Part shown: positions 1 to 39,108 of the stretch, one piece after another
How the letters are laid out: each line of letters starts with the position of its first letter
Position numbering within the stretch: the stretch's first letter is position 1
NCBI GenBank assembly: GCA_045564015.1
Contig: JBJLIB010000011.1
Coordinates: 689 to 64,688, forward strand
Reading direction: 5' to 3'
Length of the DNA: 64,000 bases
Source of the DNA: Gammaproteobacteria bacterium
Lineage (GTDB): Bacteria > Pseudomonadota > Gammaproteobacteria > Magnimaribacterales > D2472
Notes under the pieces: generated by a model
Databases searched by the model: none
Told to the model about the DNA's origin: nothing
The model's input: the letters and a program-made list of their open reading frames with translations, nothing else
Program-made: the position numbers and the translations under genes

Positions 1-62
1 TGGGAATAAGTATCTAGGGGCACCAAAAGAAGTGCAATAAAAAAAAATTTCATTCAAAAAAG

Positions 63-536
63 TTACTTAATTTCAACTCTTCTATTTTTAGCCCATGCAG
101 AATTATTAGAACCAAGAGATAGAGGTCTCTCCTCTCCGTAACTTTTTGTAATTAATCTATTTCTATTAATGCCATTTGCAATTAAATAATTTGCAACTGA
201 CTCAGCTCGTCTTTGACCTAAGGCTAAGTTATATTCCCTAGTCCCTCTTTCATCAGCATGCCCTTCAATTGAAATGGTAATTTTTGAATTTCTCTTCATT
301 AGATCGCTTACACCTTTCAAAGCTTGTATTGATTTAGCAGTAAGATTGAATTGATCATATTCAAAATAAACAACTGCATTTGCAAGCACTGCCTGAGTGG
401 CAGTAGATTTTGATGTAATGGATACCCCAGCAACACTTTGATCTGCTACTGCTTCCTCTGTTATTTGGACAGAACTACAAGCGGAAAAGATTAATATCGT
501 TATTAAAGCGAAAAAAGAATTAATTGATTTGTTCAT
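63..536 (-). CDS. pal: Peptidoglycan-associated lipoprotein Pal
   Basis: Signal peptide with lipobox (LIFSAC). OmpA-like C-terminal domain (ISIEGHADERGTREYNLALGQRRA, NRRVEIK). Directly downstream of tolB. Confidence 0.9.
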   Translation of the reverse strand: MNKSINSFFALITILIFSACSSVQITEEAVADQSVAGVSITSKSTATQAVLANAVVYFEYDQFNLTAKSIQALKGVSDLMKRNSKITISIEGHADERGTREYNLALGQRRAESVANYLIANGINRNRLITKSYGEERPLSLGSNNSAWAKNRRVEIK

Positions 537-557
537 AATAATTGTTCCATTTTGATG

Positions 558-1844
558 TTATCTTAAAAAATTTGACCAAGCAGGTTCTCTAACTTCACCG
601 TCTGAGGCTGGCAGCTTAAACTTTGCACCGCTAAGACTAAATCCAGCAAGCATACTTAGATCATTTTCTTTAATACCATAGATTACCATATTACCATTAG
701 GAGCAACACTGGGTGATTCATCCATCTTCGCTTCTGTTAATACTCTTATAAAATTTTCTCTCTTGTATTTAAGGGCGATATGAAATAACCCATCGTTGGA
801 TCGATGAACAAAGATAACCCCCTCTTCATTTGGAAGATATGAAGCTTTTGCATTATATGTCCCCTCAAATGAAATACGTTTGGCTTTTGGGTTTAACTTT
901 CTAAGATCTAATTCATAAATTTGAGGTGAGCCTGACCGACCGCTCGTAAAAAGAATTTTATTTCCCTTAGGAGACCAAGAAGACTCTGTGTCAATTGCAA
1001 ATTGATTAGTCATCCTGGTTAAAGTTCGATCTCGTAACCTTAAAATATAAATTTCTGCATTTCCATCTTGATAAAGAGTTAAAGAAAGATACTTTCCATC
1101 GGGAGACCATGAAGGAGAACTTATCTGAGTATCTTGTGATAAGACTGCCTCTCTTTTGCCAGATGCAATTTCTTGAATAAAAACTTTTGCAATGCCTGTT
1201 TCAAATGACACATATGCCACCCTCTTTCCATCAGGTGACCAAGATGGAGAGATAATAGGCTCGGAGCTTGATAAGAGAACTTTTTCATTAGCGCCATCAG
1301 AATCAGCCAACATAAGTTTGTAGATAGAGATGAAGCGAGAGTCTTTTACTTCATTTACATACAAAAGCCTAGTTGCAGCAATGCCTTTAATTCCAGTGAT
1401 TGATTCATAGATTCCATCACTAGTGTAGTGAGCAAGCTGTCTGATTTGGTTCGGGATTCCAAAAACTTTTGAACTTCTAACTTTTCTTTTTTTATGAATA
1501 TCAAAGATTTCATAACTAATATCTAGAGAGTTATTAGCATTAGCAATTGTTCCTGTAACCAAATAATCTATTCCGAGTAATTTCCAATCGCTAAATACCA
1601 ATTCATCATTAATAATCTTTACAGGCAATAATAATTCTTCATCAAGAATTGAAAATTCTCCTGTACGAATTAAGTCATTTCGCATTATGTCATTTAGTTG
1701 CTTTGAAACCCTTGAGTTACCTTCAAATGGAATCATTGCAACTCTATACGGATCTTCAGAACCCTTAGTAATTTCTAAAAAAAGCTCTCCATAGGTAAAA
1801 ATTGGAAACAACAATAAGACAACTAAAAAAAGATTTTTTTTCAT
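558..1844 (-). CDS. tolB: Tol-Pal system beta-propeller protein TolB
   Basis: Repeated SPSWSPDGK / SSWSPKGNK propeller blades, an N-terminal signal peptide, and an ATGA overlap with tolA. Confidence 0.92.
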   Translation of the reverse strand: MKKNLFLVVLLLFPIFTYGELFLEITKGSEDPYRVAMIPFEGNSRVSKQLNDIMRNDLIRTGEFSILDEELLLPVKIINDELVFSDWKLLGIDYLVTGTIANANNSLDISYEIFDIHKKRKVRSSKVFGIPNQIRQLAHYTSDGIYESITGIKGIAATRLLYVNEVKDSRFISIYKLMLADSDGANEKVLLSSSEPIISPSWSPDGKRVAYVSFETGIAKVFIQEIASGKREAVLSQDTQISSPSWSPDGKYLSLTLYQDGNAEIYILRLRDRTLTRMTNQFAIDTESSWSPKGNKILFTSGRSGSPQIYELDLRKLNPKAKRISFEGTYNAKASYLPNEEGVIFVHRSNDGLFHIALKYKRENFIRVLTEAKMDESPSVAPNGNMVIYGIKENDLSMLAGFSLSGAKFKLPASDGEVREPAWSNFLR

Positions 1845-2476
1845 GATGGGTTAAAACTTATGGCAATTATTTTGAACTCCTTGTCATATAAGGTTTTAGG
1901 CATTGAATCAAAAAAATTAAATGTCTCTACTCTTCTTACCGCCTGAAGGGCTGAGTTATCAAATCGAATATTGCCGCTGCTTTTAAGAAGTTCTGCACTT
2001 GCAATCCTTCCTGAAGAGCGAATTTTAAGCCTTAGATTCGCAACTAAACCTTCAGGTATATTTCTCGGCTTCATCCAAGCATTCTCTATTGTAGAAATAA
2101 TTTTTTGAGCATACATTGAAATTTCTTGCTGCTCACTGTTTTTTTCAATCTCGCTCTCCTCCGATAAAAGGTTAGCTATAGTTGATTCAATTAGCTCATT
2201 ATTTTGTGAGGTTTTGATTTCATCTTCAGCTTTTGAGTAGACAATATCCTCAGAAACTGGCTTGCTAGGTGTTGTATTAATATTTGCTAAAATTGGAATT
2301 TGTTTGTTTAAATCCTCGGATGGTAATTCAAACTTCAACTCTACTTGAAGAGGTTTTGATATCAAAAGTGTCTTAGAGGTATTTGCATCAAAGGTACCAT
2401 ATATATACATAAAGATAGCGGCATGAATGCAAAAAGAAAATAGCGATGCTTGCAAATATCGGTAATTAGCTATCAT
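1841..2476 (-). CDS. tolA: Short TolA-like cell envelope integrity protein
   Basis: Lies between tolR and tolB. Has an N-terminal TM helix, an acidic/helical linker and a TolA domain III-like C-terminus. Only 211 aa. Confidence 0.6.
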   Translation of the reverse strand: MIANYRYLQASLFSFCIHAAIFMYIYGTFDANTSKTLLISKPLQVELKFELPSEDLNKQIPILANINTTPSKPVSEDIVYSKAEDEIKTSQNNELIESTIANLLSEESEIEKNSEQQEISMYAQKIISTIENAWMKPRNIPEGLVANLRLKIRSSGRIASAELLKSSGNIRFDNSALQAVRRVETFNFFDSMPKTLYDKEFKIIAISFNPS

Positions 2477-2888
2477 ATCCAGATGTAATTATTCCTACTT
2501 TTTGAATTCCTAGACTTTGTATACTTGCCATCCCCTTGGCCACATAATCAAAAGGAACTTTTGCATCACTTTTAAAAACGATTTCAATATCTGGATTTGC
2601 TTGATAAATAATCTTAGCCTTATTTTTTAATTCCACTAAAGAGATAGGTAATTGCTCTTCGCCTAGGTTAATAAAATACTTTCCCTCTCCATTTATCGAG
2701 ATTACAAGTGGCTCACTTGAAACTGACATTTTGGTTGTATCAGTCTTAGGAAGATTTACCTCTATGCCTTGAATAAGCAGGGGAGAAAGAACCATGAAAA
2801 TAATTAAAAGCACTAACATCACATCAATATATGGCACAACGTTAATGTCAGCGTTTAATTTTTTTCTTTTACCTATTCTATATATCAA
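2466..2888 (-). CDS. tolR: Tol-Pal system protein TolR (ExbD/TolR family)
   Basis: The motif INVVPYIDVMLVLLIIFM is typical of TolR/ExbD. TTG start overlaps the tolQ stop (TTGA). Confidence 0.85.
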   Translation of the reverse strand: MIYRIGKRKKLNADINVVPYIDVMLVLLIIFMVLSPLLIQGIEVNLPKTDTTKMSVSSEPLVISINGEGKYFINLGEEQLPISLVELKNKAKIIYQANPDIEIVFKSDAKVPFDYVAKGMASIQSLGIQKVGIITSGYDS

Positions 2889-3565
2889 AGCTTTGCTTTA
2901 ACCGTTTGTCTATACAGGATGCTAGCTAGCTCCTCACCAAATACAGAAGATTGTTGTAACTGGGTGTCTGAATCTGATGCGAATCTGTTATATGCAACGA
3001 CTGCAGGAATTGCAGCAAAAAGTCCCAAAGCTGTTGCAACCAGTGCTTCTGAGATTCCAGGAGCAACAGCATTAATTGTTGCCTGAGTTGCATCTGAGAG
3101 GCCTTGAAAGGAATTAATAATTCCCCACACTGTTCCAAATAGGCCGACGTATGGGCTGACCGATCCAACGTTAGCTAGAAAAGGAAGGTGATGCATTAAA
3201 GATTCCTCCTCTCTAGCCAAGGATACTCTTATAGCCCTATTAACACTCTCAAGATCTTCAATTGTAATTTGCTGGCCCTCACTCAGTCTTAGAAACTCAC
3301 CAAATCCATGCTTGAAAACTCTCAGAGAGCCAACTAACTCATCGTTAGAGACTTCATCAATACCTTGATGTAATTCATTAAGATCCTTACCAGACCAAAA
3401 TTCTTTTTCAAATGCTTTGTTAGCTTCTTTGATTCGATTTAAATTAAAGTATCTTTCAAAGATAACTATCCATGAAATAATTGAAACGACTAACAATAAA
3501 ATCATTACCAATTGAACAATCAGACTAGCTTGGAGAAATAAGTCTATAACTGAAAAATCATCCAT
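2885..3565 (-). CDS. tolQ: Tol-Pal system protein TolQ (MotA/TolQ/ExbB channel)
   Basis: MDDFSVIDLFLQASLIVQL... and SPYVGLFGTVWGII match TolQ. I trimmed the ORF-track TTG start (3577) to the ATG at 3565, 1 nt after the ybgC stop. Confidence 0.9.
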   Translation of the reverse strand: MDDFSVIDLFLQASLIVQLVMILLLVVSIISWIVIFERYFNLNRIKEANKAFEKEFWSGKDLNELHQGIDEVSNDELVGSLRVFKHGFGEFLRLSEGQQITIEDLESVNRAIRVSLAREEESLMHHLPFLANVGSVSPYVGLFGTVWGIINSFQGLSDATQATINAVAPGISEALVATALGLFAAIPAVVAYNRFASDSDTQLQQSSVFGEELASILYRQTVKAKL

Positions 3566-3566
3566 A

Positions 3567-3983
3567 TCAACTCTCAAATAAATTTAGTAAGCCCACAGGA
3601 AAAGCTTTTGGTTTGCCTGAGTCATTATCAATGAAACAAACCTCGACCTCTCCTTTGCAAATGAGTGTATCATTTTTTATGTTTGAAACGGATTGAAAAA
3701 AAATAGTTCTGGCTTTGCTAACAAGCTCTATTTCTGTACTTACAGCTAAATCATCCTCTAATATTGCTGGATGGTAGTATGACAAATTAATTGATTTCAC
3801 AACATAAGATTCATTGCTTTTCGTCATTGCTTCTGTTTGAGATAAATGATTTTCAATCAAGAATTGAGATCGAGCTCTTTCAAGGTACTTGAGGTAATTT
3901 GCATGATAAACAACTCCCTGAAAATCGGTATCTTCAACGTAGACCCTACAATAGAAATCTTTAGACCTGAAACGAGGATTCAT
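3567..3983 (-). CDS. ybgC: Tol-Pal-associated acyl-CoA thioesterase YbgC (4HBT family)
   Basis: Hot-dog thioesterase motif VYVEDTDFQGVVYHANYLKYLERAR, located upstream of tolQ. The ATG at 3983 is preferred over the TTG at 3992. Confidence 0.85.
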   Translation of the reverse strand: MNPRFRSKDFYCRVYVEDTDFQGVVYHANYLKYLERARSQFLIENHLSQTEAMTKSNESYVVKSINLSYYHPAILEDDLAVSTEIELVSKARTIFFQSVSNIKNDTLICKGEVEVCFIDNDSGKPKAFPVGLLNLFES

Positions 3984-4383
3984 GTTGCTCAATATCTACC
4001 TGAAAAAGGTATCGAAGAATTTCTACAAAATCTTCCCACATTAAATCAATTGTCATTGATGAAAAATCTAACTCTGGAATCAAAGTCCCTGCAAGTATCC
4101 TCACTTTAATTGGTCGACGATTAAATTTATAGATTAAAGCTGGAAACTCTCCCTCTCCTGTTGCTGCCAAAACTTGATCCCACCAATCTTGTGATGGTTC
4201 GGCACCATCGCCATATCTTTTGCATTCTAAACACCATCTGCCTAATTTCAGATCAGGTAATTCTTTTGTTCGTGTTTGCTCAAGAATTCTTTTAACAGGC
4301 TGGGTTAAACCTAGCTGTTCAACAAGAAGATTGCCAATTTCCCTCTCGAAATTAGCTCCTTTAGTCCTTGAGTTAATCGCCAC
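3961..4383 (-). CDS. Hjc-like PD-(D/E)XK nuclease (putative Holliday junction resolvase)
   Basis: N-terminal TKGANFEREIGNLLVEQLG, then LPD44, E53-C-K55 and GEFPALIYKFNRRP give the E..D..ExK layout and block order of archaeal Hjc. GTG start has GAGGAG 5 nt upstream. Occupies the ruvC slot between yebC and ybgC. Confidence 0.6.
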   Translation of the reverse strand: MAINSRTKGANFEREIGNLLVEQLGLTQPVKRILEQTRTKELPDLKLGRWCLECKRYGDGAEPSQDWWDQVLAATGEGEFPALIYKFNRRPIKVRILAGTLIPELDFSSMTIDLMWEDFVEILRYLFQVDIEQHESSFQV

Positions 4384-4385
4384 GG

Positions 4386-5123
4386 TTACTCCTCTTCAGT
4401 AAAGTCCTCAGGAAACTCAGCATTTGTATGCACTTCCTGAACATCGTCAAGATCATCCATAAAAGTCATAATTTTTAAAACTTTTTCAGAAGCTTCATGA
4501 TCTAGGTTTACTAAAGTATCTGCTCTCATGGTATTTTCAGCCAGCAATGTTTCAATATTATTTTTATTGAAAGCCTCAATTACAACAGGAAGATTTGCAG
4601 GAGTAGAAACGATTTCAAAATAATCTTCAGTGACAGTAAAATCATCTGCACCAGCATCTAATGCAATTTCCATAATTTGATCTTCATTATGCGATAAATC
4701 AACGTGAACAACTCCTAGTTTATTAAACAGGTAAGCTACTGATCCATCTGTACCCATGTTTCCACCAAATTTCGAAAAAGCATGTCGTACATCTGCAACA
4801 GTTCTATTTCTATTATCTGTCATAGTCTCAACAAGAATAGCAACGCCATTCGGTCCATAACCTTCAAAAGTTAGCTCTTCAATGACGCCCATTTCTCCAG
4901 TTCCAGAACCTTTTTGAATTGCTCGCTTAATTGTATCTTTAGGCATATTGGCAGCGTTAGCTTTGTCCAAGGCTAGCCTCAGTCTTGGATTATCATTAGG
5001 ATCAGGACCCCCTTTAGCGGCAACTGTAATCTCTCTAATAACCTTAGTCCAAACCTTTCCTCGAGATGCATCTTGTCGTGCTTTACGATGCTTAATATTT
5101 GCCCATTTGGAGTGTCCAGCCAT
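4386..5123 (-). CDS. yebC: YebC/PmpR family DNA-binding transcriptional regulator
   Basis: MAGHSKWANIKHRKARQDASRGK is the hallmark N-terminus. Sits downstream of aspS as in other gammaproteobacteria. Confidence 0.92.
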   Translation of the reverse strand: MAGHSKWANIKHRKARQDASRGKVWTKVIREITVAAKGGPDPNDNPRLRLALDKANAANMPKDTIKRAIQKGSGTGEMGVIEELTFEGYGPNGVAILVETMTDNRNRTVADVRHAFSKFGGNMGTDGSVAYLFNKLGVVHVDLSHNEDQIMEIALDAGADDFTVTEDYFEIVSTPANLPVVIEAFNKNNIETLLAENTMRADTLVNLDHEASEKVLKIMTFMDDLDDVQEVHTNAEFPEDFTEEE

Positions 5124-6890
5124 CTATTGCTCCGGATCAAAAGTAGACTTAATATTTAACTCATCAAGCTGATCATCAGAAACTAAACCAGGCGCATCAG
5201 TAAGCAAACAAGATGCACTTTGAGTCTTAGGAAAGGCAATCACATCACGAATATTAGTCGTATCAGATAAAAGCATCACAATTCTATCTAAACCAAATGC
5301 TATTCCACCATGAGGAGGACATCCTGATGATAGCGCTGACAATAAGAAGCCAAATTTTTCTTTAGCTTCATCAGAAGAAATACCTAGTATAGAAAATATC
5401 TCTTTTTGCATTGATGGGTCATAAACCCTTAAAGATCCACCCCCTAGCTCATAACCATTTAAGACAAAATCATATGCACATGCCAATGAATTATCCGGAT
5501 CAGTCTTTAACTCTTCAACTGACACAGCGGGCAATGTAAATGGATGATGCAAAGATGTAAGATTGTTTTCTTTGTTTCTTTCAAACATTGGGAAATCAAT
5601 AATCCAACATGGAGCCCATGCAGATGTGGCTAAACTAAGATCTTCTCCAAGTTTCTTGATTAATGAGCTCATGGAAAGATTTACAATTTCTGACTTTCCT
5701 GCTCCAAAAAAAATAATGTCATTATTTTGCACATCCAAGGAAGAAATAATTGAGTCGATGGTTTCTTTTTGAAAAAATTTAAGAATTGGTGATTGAAGAC
5801 CATTTTCTTGATCAAGATCTACAACTTTTATGTAAGCAAGTCCTTTAGCGCCTAACTTACCAACATAATCAGTATACTCATCAATTTTTTTTCTGGTCAT
5901 TGATGCAGCTTCAGGAACCCTCAAAGCTACTACTCTGGATGCATGATCATTTGCAGGCCCAGAGAATACTTTAAATTCTTCATTTTTTACTAGCTCAGAA
6001 ATATCATTCAGTTCTAACGGAATTCTTAAATCAGGTTTATCACATCCATATTTTTCAATAGATTCTTTATATGTAATTCTTGGCACCTCTTTTTTTTGAT
6101 AGTCGGTAAATTCAGTAAGCAATTCAGTAATCAAATCTTCACCAAGTTCAATAATTTCGTCAGTAGAAACAAATGAGGCTTCGATATCGACCTGAGTGAA
6201 TTCAGGCTGCCTGTCAGCGCGCAAATCCTCGTCCCTAAAACATTTAGCTATTTGATAGTATTTATCTAACCCACCAATCATTAGCAACTGTTTAAATAGC
6301 TGAGGAGATTGAGGTAATGCAAAAAACTCACCAGGATGGACTCTACTCGGTACCAAATAATCTCTTGCTCCCTCAGGGGTGGCCCTAGTTAGAATGGGTG
6401 TCTCAATTTCGTGGAAATTGCGATTTTCTAATATCGATCTTATTTTTGAAGTTATTTTAGATCTCTTAACTAACCTATGGTTAACGTCCGGACGCCTTAA
6501 ATCTAAAAATCTATGTTTGAGCCTTACATCCTCATTAACATCTTGATAATCATCAAGAGGAAACTGGGGCGTAGCAGCTGAGCTAAAAATATTTAAGCTC
6601 GTTGCCTCAATCTCTATCTCTCCGGTGGTCATTTTTGGATTGACAGCACCCTCAATTCTCTTTCGGACTAGTCCTTTAATATTGACAACATATTCACTTC
6701 GGCATGAATCTGCAATATCAAAAATTTCTTTTAAATCTGGATTAAAAACAACTTGAACTATTCCATGTAAATCACGAATATCTAAAAAAATTACGCCACC
6801 ATGATCTCTTCGTTTATGCACCCATCCAGAAATCTCAATATTACTACCTATGTTTGAACTATTAATATCACCGCAATAATGTGAACGCAT
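5124..6890 (-). CDS. aspS: Aspartate--tRNA ligase (bacterial type)
   Basis: Class IIb motifs [35 protein letters not shown] and [14 protein letters not shown]. 588 aa. Confidence 0.97.
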
Positions 6891-6904
6891 TTTATCTCTC
6901 TTGT

Positions 6905-7201
6905 TTAAGTTTTTTTATCTGAACTTTTGCTTTTAGATTTATCAGTAGTTTTAGTTTTTTCTTTAGGCTGTTTTGATTTTTCATCCTTATCCTTATTGTC
7001 TACTATATTCTTTTTAGAGCCAGTTTTAAAATCAGTTTCATACCAACCTCCGCCCTTCAACCTAAAAGAAGGCGCAGAAACTAATTTTGATACTGCTTTT
7101 TTATTGCATTCAGGACAAATTTCTACTGGATTATCTGAAAATCTCTGAATAACTTCAAATTGATGCTCACATTTTGAGCATTTATATTCATAAATCGGCA
7201 T
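6905..7201 (-). CDS. FmdB-family zinc-ribbon protein with Lys/Ser/Asp-rich tail
   Basis: [17 protein letters not shown]...CPECN gives a CxxC...CxxC zinc ribbon typical of the FmdB/CxxC_CxxC_SSSS family. Confidence 0.8.
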
Positions 7202-7256
7202 AAGTCTCTAAAAAAAATATAGAATTATAAACTAAATGGAAATTCAAATATAAAAA

Positions 7257-8537
7257 ATGTTTTGGTCTAAGATTTTTTTGCCCACTCTAAAAGACTCACC
7301 GCAAGATGCCGAGATTATAAGTCATAAATTAATGCTGAGATCTGGAATGATACGTAGAGTTACATCCGGAATATATACTTGGCTTCCTCTTGGTTTAAGA
7401 GTGCTAAGGAAGGTTGAGAATATTGTTAGAGAAGAAATGAATGCCTCAGGAGCGCAAGAAGTTCTTATGCCGATGGTTCAACCAAGAGAGCTATGGGAAG
7501 AAACTAATAGATGGAAAAAAATGGGACCAGAACTGCTTCGAATTCAAGATAGACATGAAAGAGATTTCTGCCTTGGTCCTACTCATGAAGAGGTGATTAC
7601 AGACTTAATAAGAAATAATATTAAAAGTTATAAAGAATTACCCCTGAACCTTTATCAAATTCAAACTAAATTTAGAGATGAGGTCAGACCAAGATATGGA
7701 GTCATGCGTGGAAGAGAGTTTCTCATGAAAGATTCATATAGCTTCAATCTGAATGAAGAGTCATTGGCCGAATCATATCTTTTAATGAAAAATACATATA
7801 AAAAAATTATAGATAGATTAGGGCTTAAATTTAAAATTGTTAAAGCAGATTCAGGGGCAATTGGTGGAGATGTATCAGAAGAATTTCATATTTTGGCCGA
7901 GAATGGTGAAGATACCATTGCAGTAAGTGACTCCTCTGATTTTGCTATCAATACTGAACTTTTGCTAAAAGAGGGGGAAGATTTAAATTCTCTTCAAGGC
8001 AAGCCATCCCCAGATGGAGAAGGCGTAATTGAAATTAAAAAAGGGATTGAAATTGGTCATATTTTTCAACTTGGAAGAGTCTATGCGGATGCTATGAATG
8101 CAAATGTTTTAGATCAAGAAGGTAAGGCAAGGAGCCTTTTTATGGGTTGCTATGGAATTGGGGTGTCGAGACTTGTTGCTGCGGCTATTGAGCAAAATAA
8201 TGATGACAAAGGAATCATTTGGCCAGATTCCATCGCTCCATATGAAGTGAATATAGTAGCTATAGGTTTTGATAAGAATGAAGAGATAGCAAAAGCTGCT
8301 ATAGATTTATACAACCAATTATTATCTATGGGTTATGAAGCAATGCTAGATGATCGCAAAGATGGTTATGGGACCAAAATGAAAGATGCTGAGCTAATTG
8401 GAGTGCCAATCAATGTAATTATTGGCAAACAATACCTTCAAAATAATGAAATAGAGCTTAAACACAGAGATGGTCAAAGCTCTACTGGAAAAGTTGAAGA
8501 TATTTTAACAATCTTTGAGCACTACAAAAGTAGTTAA
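7257..8537 (+). CDS. proS: Proline--tRNA ligase, bacterial type lacking the INS editing domain
   Basis: RPRYGVMRGREFLMKDSYSF, GIEIGHIFQLG and MGCYGIGVSRLVAAAIEQ are present. 426 aa, with a direct junction NTELLLKEGEDLNSLQGKPSPDGEG where E. coli carries about 150 aa of INS. Confidence 0.93.
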   Translation: MFWSKIFLPTLKDSPQDAEIISHKLMLRSGMIRRVTSGIYTWLPLGLRVLRKVENIVREEMNASGAQEVLMPMVQPRELWEETNRWKKMGPELLRIQDRHERDFCLGPTHEEVITDLIRNNIKSYKELPLNLYQIQTKFRDEVRPRYGVMRGREFLMKDSYSFNLNEESLAESYLLMKNTYKKIIDRLGLKFKIVKADSGAIGGDVSEEFHILAENGEDTIAVSDSSDFAINTELLLKEGEDLNSLQGKPSPDGEGVIEIKKGIEIGHIFQLGRVYADAMNANVLDQEGKARSLFMGCYGIGVSRLVAAAIEQNNDDKGIIWPDSIAPYEVNIVAIGFDKNEEIAKAAIDLYNQLLSMGYEAMLDDRKDGYGTKMKDAELIGVPINVIIGKQYLQNNEIELKHRDGQSSTGKVEDILTIFEHYKSS

Positions 8538-9780: not shown

Positions 9781-10788
9781 TTATTTCTTTGTAGAATTTT
9801 TAACAGAGGGTATATAGGCCTTTCTGATCTCCTTGACCAGCGTATCTCTGATTTTTGTATTCTCTCTCAGAAACTTACTAGCATTAACCTTTCCTTGTCC
9901 AATTTTTTCACCATTATGGCTATACCAAGATCCAGATTTCTCAACTAACTCTAGTTTTTGACCGAGCTCTAAAATCTCACCCTCTGTGTTAATTCCTTCT
10001 CCATACATAATCTGAAACTCAGCTTGTTTAAATGGGGGTGACACTTTATTTTTAACAACCTTTACACGAGTTTCGTTTCCAACAACCTCTTCACCCTCTT
10101 TGACTGCACCTATGCGTCTGATATCAAGACGAACCGATGAATAGAATTTTAGAGCATTTCCACCAGTAGTTGTTTCAGGATTACCAAACATAACCCCAAT
10201 CTTCATTCTGATTTGGTTAATAAAAATTACCATTGCATTAGAGCGTTGAATGTTACCTGTAATTTTTCTTAGAGCTTGCGACATCAAACGGGCCTGAAGA
10301 CCCATATGATGATCCCCCATATCCCCTTCAATTTCAGCTCTTGGAGTTAGGGCGGCCACAGAATCAACAACAATTAAATCTACACTGCCAGATTTTACAA
10401 GCATATCGGTTACTTCTAATGCTTGTTCGCCAGTATCCGGTTGAGAAAGTAAAAGCTCATCCACATTCACGCCTAGTTTTTCAGCATAATTTGGATCAAG
10501 TGCATGCTCAGCATCGATAAAAGCTGCAGTACCTCCAGCTTTTTGACATTCAGCAATGGCTTGAAGTGTTAATGTGGTTTTTCCAGATGATTCTGGTCCA
10601 AAAATCTCTACAACCCTTCCCTTGGGGAGACCGCCAATGCCTAGCGCTATATCTAAGCCCAGTGAACCAGTGGAAACTGATGGCATATCTACAATTTCTC
10701 TGTCCCCCATTTTCATAACAGTCCCTTTACCAAACTGCTTTTCAATTTGAGATAAGGTCTCGTTTAGGTTTTTAACTTTATCTGACAT
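9781..10788 (-). CDS. recA: Recombinase RecA
   Basis: Walker [13 protein letters not shown] and full-length RecA similarity. An SOS box lies upstream. Confidence 0.98.
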
Positions 10789-13308: not shown

Positions 13309-14058
13309 CTACTCACAATTAAAAACCTCCTTGTACAAGTCCCAGCGAACCACATCAGCGCTTAAATTGTAGTCAAGAATTGAAATAGAAATATAATTTT
13401 GTTCAATCGCCTGTATATCTGTTCCAGATTGATCAGGTAATAGTGAGCCAGAAGGTCCAAAACTATAAAATTTAGAAGAATCCCTAGATCTAATTAAATC
13501 AGGCGTATCTGGAACACCCCTTTTACCCAATGAAGTTATTTTAATTCCTTGGATTTTTGAGGACGGCAAATCAGGAAAATTTACATTTACCAACAAATTT
13601 TGATCTGAGGGAAGTTTGGATACCTGATTAGTAATTAATAGTGATTGTTCTGCAATAAATTTAAGGTTGTTTGGATTATAAGCTGCTACCGAAAAAGCAA
13701 CTGGAACATAATCTAGTCTTCTACCAGCAATTGCCGCCCCAACAGTACCGGAATAAAAAATATCTTCCCCTAGATTTGCTCCTAAATTAATTCCTGAAAC
13801 AATCATTTCAATCGGATCCTGAATCACTGATAACAATCCCAGATATGAGCAATCTGCAGGGGTGCCTGTAACCGAAAAAATATTTTCTGAGACTTCCTCG
13901 ACTTCTATTTCTTTTCGCAGGCTGATTGCCGCACTCATTCCGCTACAATTGTCTCGTGGTGCAATTAAAAAAACTTTATGCTCAGTGCTTAAAGCTTGAA
14001 ACAATTCATTTATGCCAGATGCTTTGTAGCCATCATCGTTAGTTAGCAAAATATTCAC
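13309..14058 (-). CDS. surE: 5'/3'-nucleotidase SurE
   Basis: N-terminal NILLTNDDGYKASGI and GINLGANLG. GTG start. Confidence 0.93.
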   Translation of the reverse strand: MNILLTNDDGYKASGINELFQALSTEHKVFLIAPRDNCSGMSAAISLRKEIEVEEVSENIFSVTGTPADCSYLGLLSVIQDPIEMIVSGINLGANLGEDIFYSGTVGAAIAGRRLDYVPVAFSVAAYNPNNLKFIAEQSLLITNQVSKLPSDQNLLVNVNFPDLPSSKIQGIKITSLGKRGVPDTPDLIRSRDSSKFYSFGPSGSLLPDQSGTDIQAIEQNYISISILDYNLSADVVRWDLYKEVFNCE

Positions 14059-15209
14059 TATTTATTCCTTAAAGAAGCAATTGCATACACAGCAATTCCA
14101 TTACCGTTACCAATTACTCCCATCTTTTCTGTAGTAGTTGCCTTCACTCCAATAAAACTTTCTTCGATCTTCAGAATTGCTGAAAGAGATTTTTTTATTT
14201 TATTTACATAGGGTCCAATTTTTGGTTGTTCACACACAACAACAAAATCAATATTTCTTGGCCATAAACCGTTTTCTTTTAATAAATCTAATGATTTTTC
14301 AATAATTATTAAGCTGCTCAAATTTTTATTTTTAGGATCGCTATCAGGAAAGTAGTATCCAATGTCTCTTAGGCCAGCTGCACCCAATAAAGCATCAGAA
14401 ATAGCATGCAAAATAATATCTCCATCTGAATGAGCCACAATGGAAAGTTCACAATCTATAAAAATATTTCCTAAAGTTAAACCACTTCCTGGTTGGAATT
14501 GATGAAAATCTATTCCTCTTCCGATTCGAAGATCTCTTCCCGCATAATTAGCTATATCGTCAGTATAAGTAATTTTAGTATTTGATCTTTCTCCTGGCGC
14601 AGCTAATAATTTAAATCCTGCGTGCTCCATTACCTGAGACTCATCACTCATATGGAGACCTTCTTTCTTAAGTTTATCAAATGCTGCTTTTAATGATTTA
14701 TGGTAAAAAATCTGGGGGGTTTGCACATGCAAAAATTGCTCACGCTCCACCGGAATTAAATCCTCACCCTCTTTCATACGCAGCGAATCAGTTGCAGAAA
14801 TTATAGGAAAAACTCCTTCAATAGATCGATCATTGATAAGTTGAGACAAAAGATACTCAAAATGACTTTTTCTTAACCATGGTCTTGCAGCATCATGAAT
14901 TACTATAATCTCCGTACTTTGATCAACTTCTACTAAGGCATGAAATACTGATTCACTTCTTGTGCTACCTCCTTCAACAAATCTCACTCTTGAGTGGCCA
15001 TAAAAAGACTGTGATTTAATTAAATTCTCATTTGAATTGATGGCGACTATAACTTCTCGGATACTAGAAATTTCTAAAAATAAATTAACAGATTTTTCTA
15101 AGACCGTCTCATCACCCAAGCTCAAAAATTGCTTGGGAATTGAACCACCAAAACGACTACTATTTCCTGCCGCAGGAATAATAACTGTTATTTTATTGCT
15201 GGGGTTCAT
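14058..15209 (-). CDS. ispDF: Bifunctional IspD/IspF (MEP cytidylyltransferase / MEcPP synthase fusion)
   Basis: The N-terminal half has VIIPAAGNSSRFG...PKQF (IspD). The C-terminal half has RIGRGIDFHQF and HSDGDIILHAISDALLGAAGLRDIG (IspF). Single uninterrupted 383-aa ORF. Confidence 0.92.
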   Translation of the reverse strand: MNPSNKITVIIPAAGNSSRFGGSIPKQFLSLGDETVLEKSVNLFLEISSIREVIVAINSNENLIKSQSFYGHSRVRFVEGGSTRSESVFHALVEVDQSTEIIVIHDAARPWLRKSHFEYLLSQLINDRSIEGVFPIISATDSLRMKEGEDLIPVEREQFLHVQTPQIFYHKSLKAAFDKLKKEGLHMSDESQVMEHAGFKLLAAPGERSNTKITYTDDIANYAGRDLRIGRGIDFHQFQPGSGLTLGNIFIDCELSIVAHSDGDIILHAISDALLGAAGLRDIGYYFPDSDPKNKNLSSLIIIEKSLDLLKENGLWPRNIDFVVVCEQPKIGPYVNKIKKSLSAILKIEESFIGVKATTTEKMGVIGNGNGIAVYAIASLRNK

Positions 15210-23961: not shown

Positions 23962-23990
23962 ATTCTATGCCAAATATTCCTAGCAATCAA
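23962..23990 (-). promoter_or_regulatory. Putative sigma70 promoter of rpsF-rpsR-rplI
   Basis: On the minus strand TTGATT-N17-TAGAAT. The -35 hexamer overlaps the ftsA stop codon, about 55 nt upstream of the rpsF ATG. Confidence 0.45.
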
Positions 23991-25216
23991 TAATTATTTT
24001 TTAAGAAACCAAAAGCTCTATCAAAAAAGCTTTTATTATTTTCTAGAGTGTAGCCCTGTTTCATTTGATCAAAACCAAAGCCTACTAGACCTAAAGCAGT
24101 GGCATATATTGGATTTTTTAGCACTGACTCCATTCCATTAAATTTTTCTGGAATACCTAGTCTTACACTTGTTTGAAATATAGACTCAGCCAGAGGAACA
24201 GCTCCCTCCATTTTTGAAGTACCCCCTGTAAGTACTATTCCGGCCGGGATTTTATTTTCGAAACCATTTCGCTTAATTTCTGCTTTAACTAAATCAAAAA
24301 GCTCCACATATCTTGGCTCAATAATTTCAGCCAATGAACGTCTTGATAAGTCTTCCGGAGGTCTGCCACCAACCCTCATTACTTCTAAGGTTTCTCCATC
24401 TTGGGTAAGTTCCGCTGCTGCACAACCATGCTTTTGTTTAATGTCTTCTGCCTGAGCAGTAGGAGTTCTAAGGGCTACAGCTATATCACTAGTAACCTGA
24501 TCACCTGCTATAGGAATCACCCCAGTAAATGATATTGAGCCAGAATTAAATACTGCAATATCGGTGGTGCCTCCACCTATGTCCACCAAACAGACTCCAA
24601 GCTCTTTCTCATCCTCAGATAAAACAGAATATGAGCTGGCTAGCTGCTCTAAAACAAAACCATCAACACCAATGCCGCATCGTTTAACACATTTTTCTAT
24701 ATTCTGTATCGCATTATTGGCGCAAGTAACTAAATGAACATGGGATTCCAATCTAACACCAGACATTCCAAGCGGCTCTCTAATAGAGTCTTGATTATCA
24801 ATCACATATTCTTGAGGAAGAACATGAAGCACTCTTTGATCTGAAGGTATTGCAACTGCTTGAGCTGCTTCAATTACCCTGTCTATATCACTTGCTTCAA
24901 CTTCTTTATCTTTTATTCCTACTATTCCATGAGAATTTAAACTACGAATATGATTTCCTGCAATCCCAACATATACGTTCTTAATTTTTCCTTCAAATGA
25001 TGCCTGAGCCTGATCTAAAGATTTTTGAATTGCATCTGTAGTTGCATCAATATTCACTACAACCCCTTTTTTAAGACCGCTAGATGGATAAGATCCCATC
25101 GATACAACCTCAAGAGAATGTTGATCAACATACCTGCCAATAATACAAACAACCTTTGAAGTTCCAATATCTAGCCCGACGACATAGTCAGAATCTTTTG
25201 TTCCATTATTTGCCAT
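23987..25216 (-). CDS. ftsA: Cell division protein FtsA
   Basis: Actin-fold motifs VGLDIGTSKVVCIIG and VDIGGGTTDIAVF. Confidence 0.95.
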   Translation of the reverse strand: MANNGTKDSDYVVGLDIGTSKVVCIIGRYVDQHSLEVVSMGSYPSSGLKKGVVVNIDATTDAIQKSLDQAQASFEGKIKNVYVGIAGNHIRSLNSHGIVGIKDKEVEASDIDRVIEAAQAVAIPSDQRVLHVLPQEYVIDNQDSIREPLGMSGVRLESHVHLVTCANNAIQNIEKCVKRCGIGVDGFVLEQLASSYSVLSEDEKELGVCLVDIGGGTTDIAVFNSGSISFTGVIPIAGDQVTSDIAVALRTPTAQAEDIKQKHGCAAAELTQDGETLEVMRVGGRPPEDLSRRSLAEIIEPRYVELFDLVKAEIKRNGFENKIPAGIVLTGGTSKMEGAVPLAESIFQTSVRLGIPEKFNGMESVLKNPIYATALGLVGFGFDQMKQGYTLENNKSFFDRAFGFLKNNY

Positions 25217-29168: not shown

Positions 29169-30271
29169 TACTTTATCGTTTTATTTTCAAAATTAATTCT
29201 TAGTACCATGCCCATTAAAAACATAAATAAAATTAAGCTTGTTCCCCCATAGCTTACAAAAGGCAGCGTTAAACCTTTTGTCGGTAATATTCCAAGATTC
29301 ACACCTATGTTAAATACTACTTGAATTGCGATTAAAATACCTGCACCAAAAGCAAGCAATCCTTGAAATAATTTTCCAAGCTCTAGTGCTTTAATGGATG
29401 TTTTGATAATACCAAAAATCATTGCAGCAAAAAGAAATATCACCATCAATCCTCCAATCAGTCCAAATTCTTCAACAATTACTGCAAAAATAAAATCAGT
29501 ATGTGGCTCAGGTAGATATAAATTCTTTTGAAGGCCATTACCCAAACCCACACCTAGCCACTCACCTCTGCCAATACCAAGCAGGGCATTTGATAGCTGC
29601 CATCCGGGCCCGTAAAAATGGTCGAATGGTTCAGTAAATGAAATAAATCTTATATATCTATATGGCTCTAGATAGACAGCAATAGCTGCCAAACCACCCA
29701 TTAATAAAATTAATAGTAAAAATTGAGAAAATGAAATGCCTGCAAAAAATAGCACAGCAATTACTAAAGCTCCAATTACCAATGTTGATCCAAGATCAGG
29801 TTGAGACATAATCAATAGCCCAAAAAGAGCTAATACAATCAAGGGTCTAAAAAATCCTAGTGAAGTATTAATTTCACTTAGTCTTCTAACACAATATCCT
29901 GAAATATATATAACTAAAGCAAGCTTGCTAACTTCAGAGGGTTGGATGTTTATCGGTCCGATTCTGATCCACCTTAAACTTCCATTGACCTCTGTACCCA
30001 CCCCAGGAAAAAAAAGAGCAATAAGTAAAAGCAATGAACCAATTAAAATTAGCCAATCCAATGTGAGAAATAAGTTTGAGGGAATACTTAAGGCAATTAT
30101 TGTTGCAAAAATACCCAGAATCAAAAAAATTACTTGCCTCGAAGCAAAATGAAAGGGAGTGCCATAAAGATCTTCTGAAACGTATACACTTGATGAAGCA
30201 ACCATTACCAATCCAATGAATAACAAACAGAAATATGGAAAGATAATTAATATATTTTCTCGATCAATCAT
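29168..30271 (-). CDS. ftsW: SEDS peptidoglycan polymerase FtsW
   Basis: Polytopic membrane protein with GLTLPFVSYGGTSL. Confidence 0.93.
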   Translation of the reverse strand: MIDRENILIIFPYFCLLFIGLVMVASSSVYVSEDLYGTPFHFASRQVIFLILGIFATIIALSIPSNLFLTLDWLILIGSLLLLIALFFPGVGTEVNGSLRWIRIGPINIQPSEVSKLALVIYISGYCVRRLSEINTSLGFFRPLIVLALFGLLIMSQPDLGSTLVIGALVIAVLFFAGISFSQFLLLILLMGGLAAIAVYLEPYRYIRFISFTEPFDHFYGPGWQLSNALLGIGRGEWLGVGLGNGLQKNLYLPEPHTDFIFAVIVEEFGLIGGLMVIFLFAAMIFGIIKTSIKALELGKLFQGLLAFGAGILIAIQVVFNIGVNLGILPTKGLTLPFVSYGGTSLILFMFLMGMVLRINFENKTIK

Positions 30272-36809: not shown

Positions 36810-37074
36810 AAGTTATATTAATTGCTTTCGTAATCTCCACCATATGTAAAATTTCCTTGGCATGGCGTTCAACTTTAGCTGGAGAACTAAGATGATGGTA
36901 TTCCGTTTTTAAATTGAAATTTATTTCAGTCAATTTATTGTTTGCGACTTGAAGATAAGCATTATTTTCATGTTCTTGACTAAATTGCCATCTAATTTTT
37001 ATAGTCTCCAGACACAGGCAAAATAAAATAAAAATATTGATAAATAAAATATAAACAAAAATATCTTTTTTCAT
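36799..37074 (-). CDS. ftsL: Cell division protein FtsL
   Basis: 91-aa bitopic protein between rsmH and ftsI. Called mainly from position and topology. Confidence 0.65.
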   Translation of the reverse strand: MKKDIFVYILFINIFILFCLCLETIKIRWQFSQEHENNAYLQVANNKLTEINFNLKTEYHHLSSPAKVERHAKEILHMVEITKAINITYEK

Positions 37075-37964: not shown

Positions 37965-37968
37965 AGAT

Positions 37969-39096: not shown

Positions 39097-39108
39097 TTTC
39101 TTACCCCT

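What the first reader, a model, noticed from the sequence alone, without database searches (positions are those of the whole stretch)
3961..4383. Archaeal/phage-type Hjc-like nuclease sits exactly where ruvC-ruvA-ruvB should be
Seen in the sequence:
- A 140-aa ORF has a GTG start with GAGGAG 5 nt upstream. It is wedged between yebC (2-nt gap) and ybgC (23-nt overlap), so it is integrated into the operon and is not an island.
- Its sequence runs TKGANFEREIGNLLVEQLG, then LPD44, then E53-C-K55, then GEFPALIYKFNRRPIKVRI.
- That reproduces the E..D..ExK catalytic layout and the block order I remember for archaeal Hjc (Pyrococcus Hjc, from memory: RKGAQAERELIKLLEKHGF ... VDL ... IEVK ... GGIPVLAVKF).
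- No RuvC-, RuvA- or RuvB-like sequence exists anywhere in the window.

Established knowledge: Pseudomonas-type gammaproteobacteria carry aspS-yebC-ruvC-ruvA-ruvB-ybgC-tolQ-tolR-tolA-tolB-pal. Here every flanking gene is present and collinear.

Inference: the roughly 2.5-kb RuvABC resolvasome module may have been displaced in situ by a single 0.42-kb Hjc-family resolvase. That would be an unusual route to Holliday-junction resolution for a free-living proteobacterium.
Basis: partly seen in the sequence, partly recalled or inferred. Interest (0 to 1): 0.75.

Follow-up and report, generated by a model that had tools for sequence, protein, structure and literature searches.

The report
Phage-type resolvase replaces ruvCAB in SAR86
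In this SAR86 marine bacterium, the slot that normally holds the three-gene RuvABC machinery for untangling recombining chromosomes holds one small, strongly conserved nuclease of phage origin that looks like the archaeal Holliday-junction cutter Hjc, which suggests a minimal, untested way of finishing recombination in one of the ocean's most abundant bacteria.

Summary
The 140-aa ORF at 3961-4383 (-) lies between yebC and ybgC inside a tightly packed aspS-yebC-X-ybgC-tolQRAB-pal string.

- **Family and fold:** X passes the Pfam threshold for PF24608 (phage putative PD-(D/E)XK endonuclease) and matches PHROG 244. G9, E13, D44 and K55 are invariant and E53 is nearly invariant in 45 homologues. 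In the confident AlphaFold model, the closest solved structures are all archaeal Hjc/Hje.
- **Synteny:** 73 of 80 gammaproteobacterial yebC loci have ruvC directly after yebC, and 57 show the full yebC-ruvCAB…tolQ string. Only a SAR86 single-cell genome and one other low-GC lineage carry X there.
- **RuvABC loss:** A published marker table for the closed SAR86 isolate genome HIMB1674 lists RuvA, RuvB and RuvC as absent, as they are in nearly all SAR86 genomes.
- **Selection and origin:** X evolves like a core gene (dN/dS 0.018). Relatives below about 50% identity sit on phage contigs.

In-situ displacement of ruvCAB by a domesticated phage Hjc-like nuclease is therefore well supported. Junction cleavage, dimer formation and the source of branch migration (RecG?) are not tested. 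I found no text mention of the swap. I rate it a new variant of a known kind, interest about 0.6.

The parts
3961..4383 (-). Gene X: 140-aa PD-(D/E)XK nuclease of Pfam PF24608 with an Hjc-like fold. Predicted catalytic residues are E13, D44, E53 and K55. The N-terminal R6-x-K8-G9 motif is also conserved.
   Evidence: ORF and translation. Pfam and PHROG hits. Residue conservation. AF2 model. Fold matches to Hjc/Hje and to phage proteins. dN/dS 0.018.
4389..4394 (-). GAGGAG Shine-Dalgarno-like hexamer 5 nt upstream of the GTG start. It lies inside the last codons of yebC, which suggests translational coupling.
   Evidence: Read directly from the sequence.
4386..5123 (-). yebC (TACO1/YebC family), the usual upstream neighbour of ruvC. 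Its stop codon is 2 nt before the X start.
   Evidence: Pfam PF20772 and PF01709. Synteny across 80 loci.
5124..6890 (-). aspS (aspartyl-tRNA synthetase). It abuts yebC with no gap and is the first gene of the collinear string.
   Evidence: ORF. tblastn synteny. Pfam annotation of the ortholog in L081.
3567..3983 (-). ybgC (4HBT-type acyl-CoA thioesterase), the usual downstream neighbour of ruvB. It overlaps the 3' end of X by 23 nt when the ATG start is used.
   Evidence: Pfam PF13279 and PF03061. The same 23-nt overlap is called in L081.
63..3577 (-). tolQ (2885-3577), tolR (2466-2888), tolA (1841-2476), tolB (558-1844) and pal (63-536). This is the Tol-Pal cluster that follows ybgC, as in other Gammaproteobacteria.
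   Evidence: ORFs. tblastn of TolQ across loci. Pfam annotation of orthologs in L081.
9781..10788 (-). recA, about 5.4 kb upstream on the same strand. RecA makes the junctions X would have to resolve. It is a functional partner, not part of the operon.
   Evidence: ORF translation. RecA_N and RecA_C Pfam hits on the ortholog in L081, which has the same layout.

Best explanation
X is a domesticated, phage-derived PD-(D/E)XK structure-selective endonuclease (Pfam PF24608, Hjc-like fold). In an ancestor of the SAR86 order it took over the chromosomal slot, and most likely the junction-resolving job, of ruvC-ruvA-ruvB.

Shown:
- family membership;
- the catalytic motif and its conservation;
- the Hjc-like predicted fold;
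- the location exactly in the ruvCAB slot;
- core-gene-like purifying selection across deep SAR86 lineages;
- phage residence of the more distant relatives;
- published absence of RuvA, RuvB and RuvC markers from a closed SAR86 genome.

Inferred mechanism, by analogy with Hjc and phage resolvases:
- X acts as a homodimer that binds the four-way junctions made by RecA.
- Mg2+ is held by E13, D44 and E53, and K55 stabilises the transition state.
- X makes two symmetric nicks in opposing strands, giving nicked duplexes that ligase seals.
- It is co-translated with yebC (2-nt gap, Shine-Dalgarno site inside yebC) from the same operon context that drives ruvC in relatives.
- Because RuvAB, and also RadA, are missing, cleavage is probably sequence-tolerant. 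Any branch migration would be spontaneous or supplied by RecG or another helicase, neither of which was checked.
For: Family and motif:
- Pfam PF24608 scores above its gathering threshold, and all 45 aligned homologues match it.
- PHROG 244, a resolvase-annotated phage family, matches at 5.5e-11.
- G9, E13, D44 and K55 are invariant; E53, R6, K8, W67, W68 and Q70 are at least 90% conserved.

Fold:
- AF2 model: pLDDT 85.7, pTM 0.83.
- The top 15 PDB matches are all Hjc/Hje (2wcw, 1ob8, 1gef, 2eo0), with probability 0.80-1.00 and TM 0.38-0.63.
- The family profile against PDB sequences returns 7 Hjc/Hje among 9 hits, with the KG..ERE, D and ExK blocks aligned.
- Three homologues also touch Pfam Hjc.
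- In BFVD the best phage match has E 6e-12 and TM 0.81, and several matches are annotated as Holliday junction resolvase or Hjc.

Synteny:
- 73 of 80 loci have yebC followed by ruvC, and 57 have the full yebC-ruvCAB…tolQ string. X sits in that slot only in L001 (SAR86) and L021.
- The same aspS-yebC-X-ybgC-tol context holds for homologues at 67%, 61%, 59% and 56% identity.

Selection:
- X identity across three lineages is 96/67/56%, against AspS 91/69/57% and YebC 94/80/54%.
- dN/dS is 0.018, the lowest of seven neighbouring genes.

Phage origin:
- Homologues at 49% identity or less sit on phage contigs with primase, tail-fibre, lysozyme and helicase genes. One such contig is catalogued in IMG/VR.
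- There are 20 hits in isolated phage genomes.
- Non-SAR86 members lie on contigs of at most 65 kb, whereas SAR86 members lie on contigs up to 1.29 Mb.

RuvABC loss:
- Ramfelt et al. 2024, Table S1.

Precedent from the literature:
- Methanothermobacter Hjc complements E. coli ruvC, and RusA suppresses ruv mutants (review PMC10956419).
Against: - No biochemical or genetic test exists for any PF24608 protein that I could find.
- The window protein itself does not hit Pfam Hjc. Foldseek E-values to Hjc are only 1e-3 to 5e-2, with TM about 0.45-0.63, so the similarity is at superfamily level.
- Dimerisation could not be modelled.
- SAR86 keeps YqgF/RuvX (PF03652 is present in Table S1), which some authors regard as a resolvase.
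- The RuvABC-absence evidence comes from CheckM marker HMMs on other SAR86 genomes, not from this window's own genome. The same table also scores Ffh and FtsY markers as absent, so some of its 'absences' could be divergence rather than loss.
- One putative SAR86 genome (GCA_001627995.1) scores positive for RuvA and RuvC.
- RecG status is unknown.
Confidence: 0.62

Rival explanations
1. X is a general branched-DNA or fork-processing nuclease, a phage-type 'debrancher', kept for replication-fork rescue or for removing aberrant structures. Holliday junctions in SAR86 would instead be handled by YqgF/RuvX, by helicase-topoisomerase dissolution, or by reverse branch migration.
For: - Phage resolvases are typically promiscuous on branched substrates (abstract of PMC3864405, listed).
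- YqgF (PF03652) is present in SAR86.
- RecG-type reverse branch migration is a known alternative route (review PMC10956419).
Against: - The exact positional replacement of ruvCAB, together with the loss of all three Ruv proteins, points to functional substitution.
- From established knowledge, E. coli YqgF acts mainly in rRNA maturation, so its presence says little.
- This rival overlaps the main explanation mechanistically: same enzyme chemistry, broader substrate range.
Confidence: 0.2
2. X is a selfish or defensive nuclease, such as a restriction-like, toxin or anti-phage effector, or a decaying prophage remnant that happens to lie next to yebC.
For: - The family is phage-borne.
- UniRef names one SAR86 ortholog 'Restriction endonuclease'.
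- Two homologues weakly hit Mrr_cat, and a restriction enzyme (3ndh) appears at rank 16 in the fold search.
Against: - There is no PADLOC defence-family hit.
- There is no methyltransferase, immunity gene or other phage gene nearby; the flanks are aspS, yebC, ybgC and tolQ with a 2-nt gap and a 23-nt overlap.
- X is single-copy, syntenic and conserved like AspS and YebC down to 56% identity, with dN/dS 0.018. This is the opposite of a patchy, fast-evolving defence gene or a remnant.
Confidence: 0.05
3. X is a mismatch- or lesion-specific endonuclease, functionally like NucS/EndoMS, that compensates for the loss of MutS and MutL in SAR86 rather than for the loss of RuvABC.
For: - The SAR86 marker table also lacks MutS domain I and the MutL C-terminal domain.
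- From established knowledge, NucS is a PD-(D/E)XK enzyme that replaces MutSL in Actinobacteria and archaea.
Against: - No NucS structure appears among the 50 best fold matches, while Hjc/Hje fill the top ranks.
- X has no NucS Pfam hit and, at 140 aa, lacks a NucS-type N-terminal domain.
- Its position is the ruv slot, not the mutS or mutL slot.
Confidence: 0.04

Closest known systems
Phage PF24608 (PDDEXK_15) / PHROG 244 proteins, for example in Roseobacter phages CRP-406/701/811 and Salmonella phage BP63-like viruses
   Same: - Same sequence family: X scores above the Pfam threshold and matches the PHROG at 5.5e-11.
- Same length class, about 125-150 aa.
- Same invariant G/E/D/ExK residues and WWxQ motif.
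- The best predicted-structure match has TM 0.81.
- tblastn identity to phage genomes is 26-41%.
   Different: - Phage copies sit in phage replication, recombination or lysis modules on contigs of at most 65 kb.
- X is a single-copy core chromosomal gene in the ruvCAB slot of a free-living bacterium and is under housekeeping-level constraint.
- SAR86 copies carry an extra C-terminal helix, roughly residues 128-140.
- I found no experimental study of any member of the family.
Archaeal Holliday junction resolvases Hjc/Hje (Pfam PF01870; PDB 1gef, 2wcw, 1ob8, 2eo0)
   Same: - They are the closest solved structures.
- The order and spacing of the catalytic blocks match: KG-x2-ERE, D, ExK, then a hydrophobic beta strand ending in KF.
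- Similar size.
   Different: - The window protein has no PF01870 hit.
- TM is only 0.45-0.63 and identity about 20%.
- The lineage is bacterial/phage, not archaeal.
- The W67-W68-x-Q70 motif is specific to the X family.
- The Hjc dimer and its cleavage pattern are experimentally known; those of X are not.
RecU of Firmicutes and Mollicutes
   Same: A PD-(D/E)XK-superfamily resolvase that non-orthologously replaced RuvC in a large bacterial group (Zhang et al. 2012, PMC3403352).
   Different: - RecU-bearing bacteria keep RuvAB, and recU is unlinked to ruvAB.
- Here RuvA and RuvB are gone as well, and the substitute sits in the vacated slot.
- There is no RecU Pfam hit and no RecU structure in the top 50 fold matches.
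RusA of the defective prophage DLP12 in E. coli
   Same: A small, phage-derived, homodimeric resolvase that can substitute for the entire RuvABC system when expressed. It is the precedent for a phage resolvase taking over from Ruv (review PMC10956419).
   Different: - RusA has a different fold and catalytic triad. The PHROG label 'RusA-like' is functional, and X has no RusA Pfam hit.
- RusA is a cryptic suppressor in a laboratory setting and depends on RecG.
- X is a fixed, constitutive core gene of a whole bacterial order.
RuvABC resolvasome
   Same: Same chromosomal position and operon context (downstream of yebC, upstream of ybgC-tol-pal), and presumably the same substrates made by RecA.
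   Different: - No sequence or fold relationship: RuvC is an RNase H-like enzyme.
- X is one 0.42-kb gene instead of about 2.3-2.5 kb.
- There is no branch-migration motor.

Membership tests
Pfam PF24608 (PDDEXK_15, phage putative PD-(D/E)XK endonuclease) | Whole-protein HMM score at or above the curated gathering threshold | tested here: met
   The score is 30.1 bits against a cut-off of 27, E 5.3e-7, covering residues 4-96. All 45 aligned homologues match, with a best E of 1.7e-19.
Pfam PF24608 (PDDEXK_15, phage putative PD-(D/E)XK endonuclease) | Family members are encoded by phages | tested here: met
   This holds for relatives: phage contigs L084-L088, an IMG/VR viral contig and 20 isolated phage genomes. 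The window copy itself is chromosomal, so it is a domesticated member.
PD-(D/E)XK nuclease superfamily | Conserved E...D...(D/E)xK catalytic residues | tested here: met
   E13, D44 and K55 are invariant and E53 is at least 90% conserved in 45 sequences whose identity to X runs from 29% to 94%. The same holds in the set of 36 homologues drawn from outside the SAR86 group.
PD-(D/E)XK nuclease superfamily | Alpha-beta-beta-beta-alpha-beta core fold | tested here: met
   The AF2 model has H5-24, E45-47, E50-57, H65-74, E80-87 and E93-97, with pLDDT 85.7. All confident structural matches are PD-(D/E)XK enzymes.
Archaeal Hjc (Pfam PF01870) | Match to the Hjc profile HMM | tested here: not met
   The window protein has no PF01870 hit at E <= 1. 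Only 3 of 45 homologues reach E <= 0.1, with a best of 2.4e-4. The profile against PDB Hjc sequences gives E 0.08-0.8.
Archaeal Hjc (Pfam PF01870) | Hjc is the nearest solved fold | tested here: met
   Ranks 1-15 are all Hjc/Hje, with probability 0.80-1.00. For 1gef, TMq is 0.55 and TMt 0.63.
Archaeal Hjc (Pfam PF01870) | Homodimer that makes paired, symmetric nicks specifically in four-way junctions | not testable with these tools
   This needs multimer modelling or biochemistry. Only single-chain prediction of window sequences was possible.
RusA (Pfam PF05866) | RusA profile match and fold | tested here: not met
   There is no RusA Pfam hit and no RusA structure among the fold matches. The PHROG 244 name 'RusA-like' is an annotation label.
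RecU (PF03838), YraN/UPF0102 (PF02021), RuvC (PF02075) | Profile match | tested here: not met
   None is listed at E <= 1. There is no NCBIfam hit. tblastn with RuvC finds nothing in the window.
Restriction-modification or anti-phage defence nuclease | Match to a defence-system model, plus a partner methylase or immunity gene and patchy distribution | tested here: not met
   PADLOC gives only a noise hit at E 0.059. The neighbours are yebC and ybgC. Synteny is conserved and dN/dS is 0.018.
Non-orthologous gene displacement in situ | Relatives carry the displaced genes in exactly this slot | tested here: met
   yebC-ruvC adjacency is found in 73 of 80 loci, and the full yebC-ruvCAB-(ybgC)-tolQ string in 57 of 80.
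Non-orthologous gene displacement in situ | The displaced genes are absent from the whole genome, not just moved | tested here: inconclusive
   They are absent from the 64-kb window. Published Table S1 lists the RuvA_N, RuvA_C, RuvB_C and RuvC markers as absent in the closed SAR86 genome HIMB1674 and in about 45 of 47 visible SAR86 genomes. The genome this window comes from could not be scanned here.

The most novel reading that the evidence does not exclude
The whole SAR86 order (Magnimaribacterales), among the most abundant bacteria in the surface ocean, completes homologous recombination without RuvA, RuvB, RuvC or RadA. It would instead use a single 140-aa Hjc-like resolvase captured from a marine phage and fixed in the vacated ruvCAB operon slot. 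That would make it a natural 'minimal resolvasome' and the first bacterial lineage known to rely on an Hjc-type or phage-type enzyme as its primary chromosomal junction resolvase.
Probability: 0.5. Interest if true: 0.72.

Novelty: new variant of a known kind. Interest (0 to 1): 0.62.

Why it matters
RuvAB is close to universal in bacteria. Zhang et al. 2012 found RuvA and RuvB in almost all sequenced genomes, and RuvC is replaced only by RecU in Firmicutes.

A free-living, globally dominant clade that has discarded the whole resolvasome and kept one phage-derived nuclease in its place would bear on several questions:

- It would show how far recombination and repair can be streamlined.
- It would be a clean natural example of in-situ non-orthologous displacement by a domesticated phage gene.
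- It would give the uncharacterised family PF24608 / PHROG 244 a testable cellular function.
- It would help explain why completeness tools that count RuvABC markers underestimate SAR86 genomes.
- It would bear on recombination rates and population structure in SAR86, which also lacks MutSL, RecN and RadA markers.

The first SAR86 isolate, HIMB1674, now makes the biology experimentally reachable.

Tried and rejected
Searches that found nothing:
- NCBIfam and a single-sequence search of PDB sequences gave no hits.
- PADLOC gave only noise.
- Literature searches for SAR86 with ruvC, SAR86 with Holliday junction, and PF24608/PDDEXK_15 returned nothing.
- The Dupont 2012 paper has no supplements held as text.

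Searches that fell short of their aim:
- The genome-contig scan with YebC was meant to sample many SAR86 species. It still gave a good sample of canonical loci.
- RecG, RecQ and related terms are not in the Ramfelt supplements, so the branch-migration question stays open.
- I could not devise a capped search that would detect a SAR86 RuvB or RecG among millions of orthologues.
- The taxonomy of L021 (SZUA-1006) could not be resolved from the supplements.
- The viral-contig scan with the alignment failed because no conserved 7-mer was available. With the window protein it found no viral copy.

Analyses that were not informative:
- The promoter and terminator scan of 1-7400 showed nothing above shuffled expectation, so it neither supports nor contradicts co-transcription.
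- A neighbour-joining tree placed one phage sequence (P0135) inside the clade of SAR86-type sequences. With 129 columns this is too weak to decide the direction of transfer.

Readings rejected: YraN, RecU, RusA, NucS, restriction/defence nuclease and prophage remnant. See the rival explanations and the membership tests.
Full report
**1. Observation**

- Read, the minus strand upstream of the start is GAA-GAG-GAG-TAA-CC-GTG. This gives a GAGGAG hexamer (4389-4394), a 5-nt spacer, and the yebC stop codon 2 nt before the start.
- The 3' end of X overlaps ybgC by 23 nt if ybgC starts at the ATG at 3983. A gene caller chose that start in the orthologous locus L081. The overlap is 32 nt with the mechanical TTG start.
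- The minus-strand gene order is aspS, yebC, X, ybgC, tolQ, tolR, tolA, tolB, pal, with essentially no intergenic space.
- A consensus scan finds no excess of promoter-like or terminator-like sites in this stretch: 23 against 24.5 expected, and 6 against 4.2 expected.
- tblastn with Pseudomonas RuvC, RuvA and RuvB finds nothing in the 64-kb window.

**2. What the protein is**

- **Family.** X passes the Pfam gathering threshold for PF24608, 'Phage putative PDDEXK endonuclease' (30.1 bits against 27, E 5.3e-7). It matches PHROG 244, annotated 'RusA-like Holliday junction resolvase', at 5.5e-11.
- **Families it does not match.** There is no NCBIfam hit, no PADLOC hit, and no Pfam hit to Hjc, RecU, RusA, YraN or RuvC.
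- **Family size.** An exhaustive search of 1.84 billion cluster representatives finds 360 clusters at E <= 1e-3.
- **Conserved residues.** In 45 full-length homologues whose identity to X runs from 94% down to 29%, G9, E13, D44 and K55 are invariant. R6, K8, R32, Q36, E53, W67, W68, Q70 and P81 are at least 90% conserved.
- **Predicted structure.** The AlphaFold2 model built on that alignment is confident (pLDDT 85.7, pTM 0.83) and has the alpha-beta-beta-beta-alpha-beta core.
- **Solved structures.** The 15 best PDB matches are all archaeal Hjc or Hje (A. fulgidus 2wcw/2wiw, S. solfataricus 1ob8, P. furiosus 1gef, S. tokodaii 2eo0). Probabilities are 0.80-1.00, but E-values are modest (1e-3 to 5e-2) and TM is 0.38-0.63. 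A restriction enzyme appears only at rank 16. No RecU, RusA, T7 endonuclease I or NucS structure is in the top 50.
- **Sequence link to Hjc.** The family profile against PDB sequences returns Hjc/Hje for 7 of 9 sub-threshold hits. The KG-x2-ERE, D and ExK blocks are aligned residue for residue. Three family members weakly touch Pfam Hjc, best E 2.4e-4.
- **Predicted viral structures.** Matches are much stronger: best E 6e-12, TM 0.81, 33% identity. Several are annotated as Holliday junction resolvase or Hjc.

In short, X is a member of a phage PD-(D/E)XK family whose nearest characterised relatives, at superfamily level, are the archaeal junction resolvases. It is not a member of the Hjc Pfam family proper.

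**3. Where the family lives**

- The 120 closest homologues (at least 64% identity, 139-142 aa) come from SAR86 MAGs, single-cell genomes and marine metagenomes. They lie on contigs up to 1.29 Mb.
- Their context is the same as in the window. This holds for P0083 at 67% identity, which has recA…aspS-yebC-X-ybgC-tolQRAB-pal and lies on a 1.1-Mb contig. It also holds for P0122 at 61%, P0123 at 59% and L021 at 56%.
- Below about 50% identity the context changes to phage.
  - P0135 (49%) lies next to a VapE/Toprim primase and DUF3799. Its contig is catalogued in IMG/VR.
  - P0140 (46%) lies among Peptidase_S74 tail fibres, a phage lysozyme and an AAA_25 helicase.
  - P0163 lies among small phage genes.
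- Twenty isolated phage genomes carry homologues at 26-41% identity, including Roseobacter CRP phages and Salmonella/Escherichia BP63-like phages.
- A profile of the non-SAR86 members retrieves proteins whose longest contigs are at most 65 kb. Several are labelled 'Holliday junction resolvase' by JGI.
- The SAR86 form was not found in IMG/VR.

**4. The slot**

I fetched 80 loci around YebC from species-representative genomes and typed them by tblastn.

- 73 have ruvC directly after yebC.
- 57 show the complete yebC-ruvC-ruvA-ruvB-(ybgC)-tolQ string.
- 5 have neither ruvC nor X within the fetched stretch.
- 2 have X between yebC and ybgC: L001 (SAR86 SAG AG-313-N18, 94% YebC identity to the window) and L021 (MAG SZUA-1006, 35% GC).
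- None has both X and ruvCAB.

X sits in a slot that holds about 2.3-2.5 kb of ruv genes in relatives. With roughly 1,300 genes in a SAR86 genome, a random insertion would land in that one slot about once in a thousand. This figure is my own inference.

**5. Are ruvABC really gone?**

I could not scan this organism's whole genome. The evidence comes from Ramfelt et al. 2024 (ISME J, PMC11582366).

[quoted passage not shown] 27 of the 28 are systematically absent from 732 SAR86 genomes.
- In their Table S1, PF01330 (RuvA_N), PF07499 (RuvA_C), PF05491 (RuvB_C) and PF02075 (RuvC) are marked absent in HIMB1674. They score zero in about 45 of the 47 genomes visible in the stored part of the table.
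- RadA, RecN, MutS domain I and the MutL C-terminal domain are absent too. PF03652 (YqgF/RuvX), RecF, RecO and RecR are present.
- The paper's text does not mention Ruv, resolvases or X. Full-text searches pairing SAR86 with ruvC or Holliday junction returned nothing.

The loss is therefore on record only in a supplementary marker table, and I found no text describing the replacement.

**6. Is X functional?**

- Across three depths of divergence, X is as conserved as the flanking housekeeping genes. X is 96/67/56% identical, against AspS 91/69/57%, YebC 94/80/54% and TolQ 93/63/49%.
- Between the window and L001, synonymous sites are near saturation (dS about 0.9). X has dN/dS 0.018, the lowest of seven neighbours.
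- In L021, X is 56% identical while AspS is 57%. This fits vertical descent from an ancestor that already had X in place, so the swap is old.

**7. Mechanism (inferred)**

By analogy with Hjc and phage resolvases, X should be a Mg2+-dependent homodimer that recognises four-way junctions made by RecA. recA lies 5.4 kb upstream at 9781-10788. X would nick two opposing strands, with E13, D44 and E53 binding the metal and K55 stabilising the transition state.

The literature gives precedents. An archaeal Hjc complements E. coli ruvC, and the phage-derived RusA suppresses ruvA, ruvB and ruvC mutants provided RecG is present (review PMC10956419).

With RuvAB and RadA gone, there are two possibilities: X cuts with little sequence preference and needs no motor, or RecG or another helicase supplies branch migration. 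RecG status is unknown.

**8. Rivals**

- **Broader debranching or fork-processing role, with junctions handled otherwise (YqgF, dissolution).** This is compatible with the same chemistry and cannot be excluded (about 0.2).
- **Defence nuclease, toxin or prophage remnant.** This is contradicted by synteny, single-copy core status, the lack of partner genes and dN/dS (about 0.05).
- **NucS-like mismatch role compensating MutSL loss.** This is contradicted by the fold ranking, the protein's size and its position (about 0.04).

**9. Comparison and novelty**

The closest sequence family is PF24608/PHROG 244 of phages. The closest characterised fold is Hjc/Hje.

The closest evolutionary precedents are RecU, a PD-(D/E)XK enzyme that replaces RuvC while RuvAB is retained and the gene is unlinked, and RusA, a phage resolvase that suppresses ruv mutants in the laboratory.

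What is different here is the combination of four things:
- a phage-family Hjc-like enzyme;
- fixation as a core gene of an entire free-living, very abundant order;
- loss of the motor subunits as well as the nuclease;
- occupation of the very slot the Ruv genes vacated.

I class it as a new variant of a known kind. Function remains to be shown, which keeps the score at about 0.6.

Noticed in passing
window 37071-39576 (-), with 23987-25216 (-): The order of the division/cell-wall cluster is unusual. ftsZ (37969-39096) lies between mraZ (39109-39576) and rsmH (37071-37964), at the head of the cluster. It is not after ftsA (23987-25216), which is followed directly by rpsF. The identities were confirmed by Pfam.
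   Followed up: partly
window 14058-15209 (-): A single 383-aa ORF fuses IspD (residues 7-220) and IspF/YgbB (residues 227-380). My recollection is that these are usually separate genes in Gammaproteobacteria.
   Followed up: partly
window 30264-31325 (-): MurD is short, at 353 aa. Its Pfam matches are only partial for Mur_ligase_M and sub-threshold for the MurD N-terminal domain, and no C-terminal Mur ligase domain is reported. This may be a streamlined or divergent enzyme.
   Followed up: no
Ramfelt et al. 2024 Table S1; not in the window: Besides RuvABC, the SAR86 marker table scores RadA, RecN, MutS, MutL, YbaB/EbfC, ClpB, PrfC and LolA/LolD as absent, and even Ffh and FtsY domains. One putative SAR86 genome (GCA_001627995.1) scores positive for RuvA_N, RuvA_C and RuvC. 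It could be a lineage that predates the swap, or it could be contamination.
   Followed up: no
L021 5149-5565 (MAG SZUA-1006, DQKS01000035.1): A low-GC (35%) gammaproteobacterial MAG has AspS and YebC no closer to the window than those of Pseudomonas (54-57%). It nevertheless has the same aspS-yebC-X-ybgC-tolQ arrangement, with X 56% identical. It is either a very deep SAR86 relative or a second lineage with the same swap. Its taxonomy was not resolved.
   Followed up: partly
L085 5718-6125, L086 and L093 (IMGVR_UViG_3300004369_000639): The phage contig with the closest non-SAR86 homologue (49% identity) places it right after a DUF3799 gene and near a VapE/Toprim primase. In a rough NJ tree this phage sequence falls inside the clade of SAR86-type sequences. 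It may be a SAR86-infecting phage lineage related to the donor, or one that took the gene from the host.
   Followed up: partly
window 40848-42556: The gene downstream of the lpoA-like ORF (40848-41951, +) is a convergent sspA-like ORF (41948-42556, -). No yraN (UPF0102) gene follows lpoA as I recall it does in E. coli, so another small PD-(D/E)XK gene seems to be missing from its usual place. This was judged by eye from the translations only.
   Followed up: no
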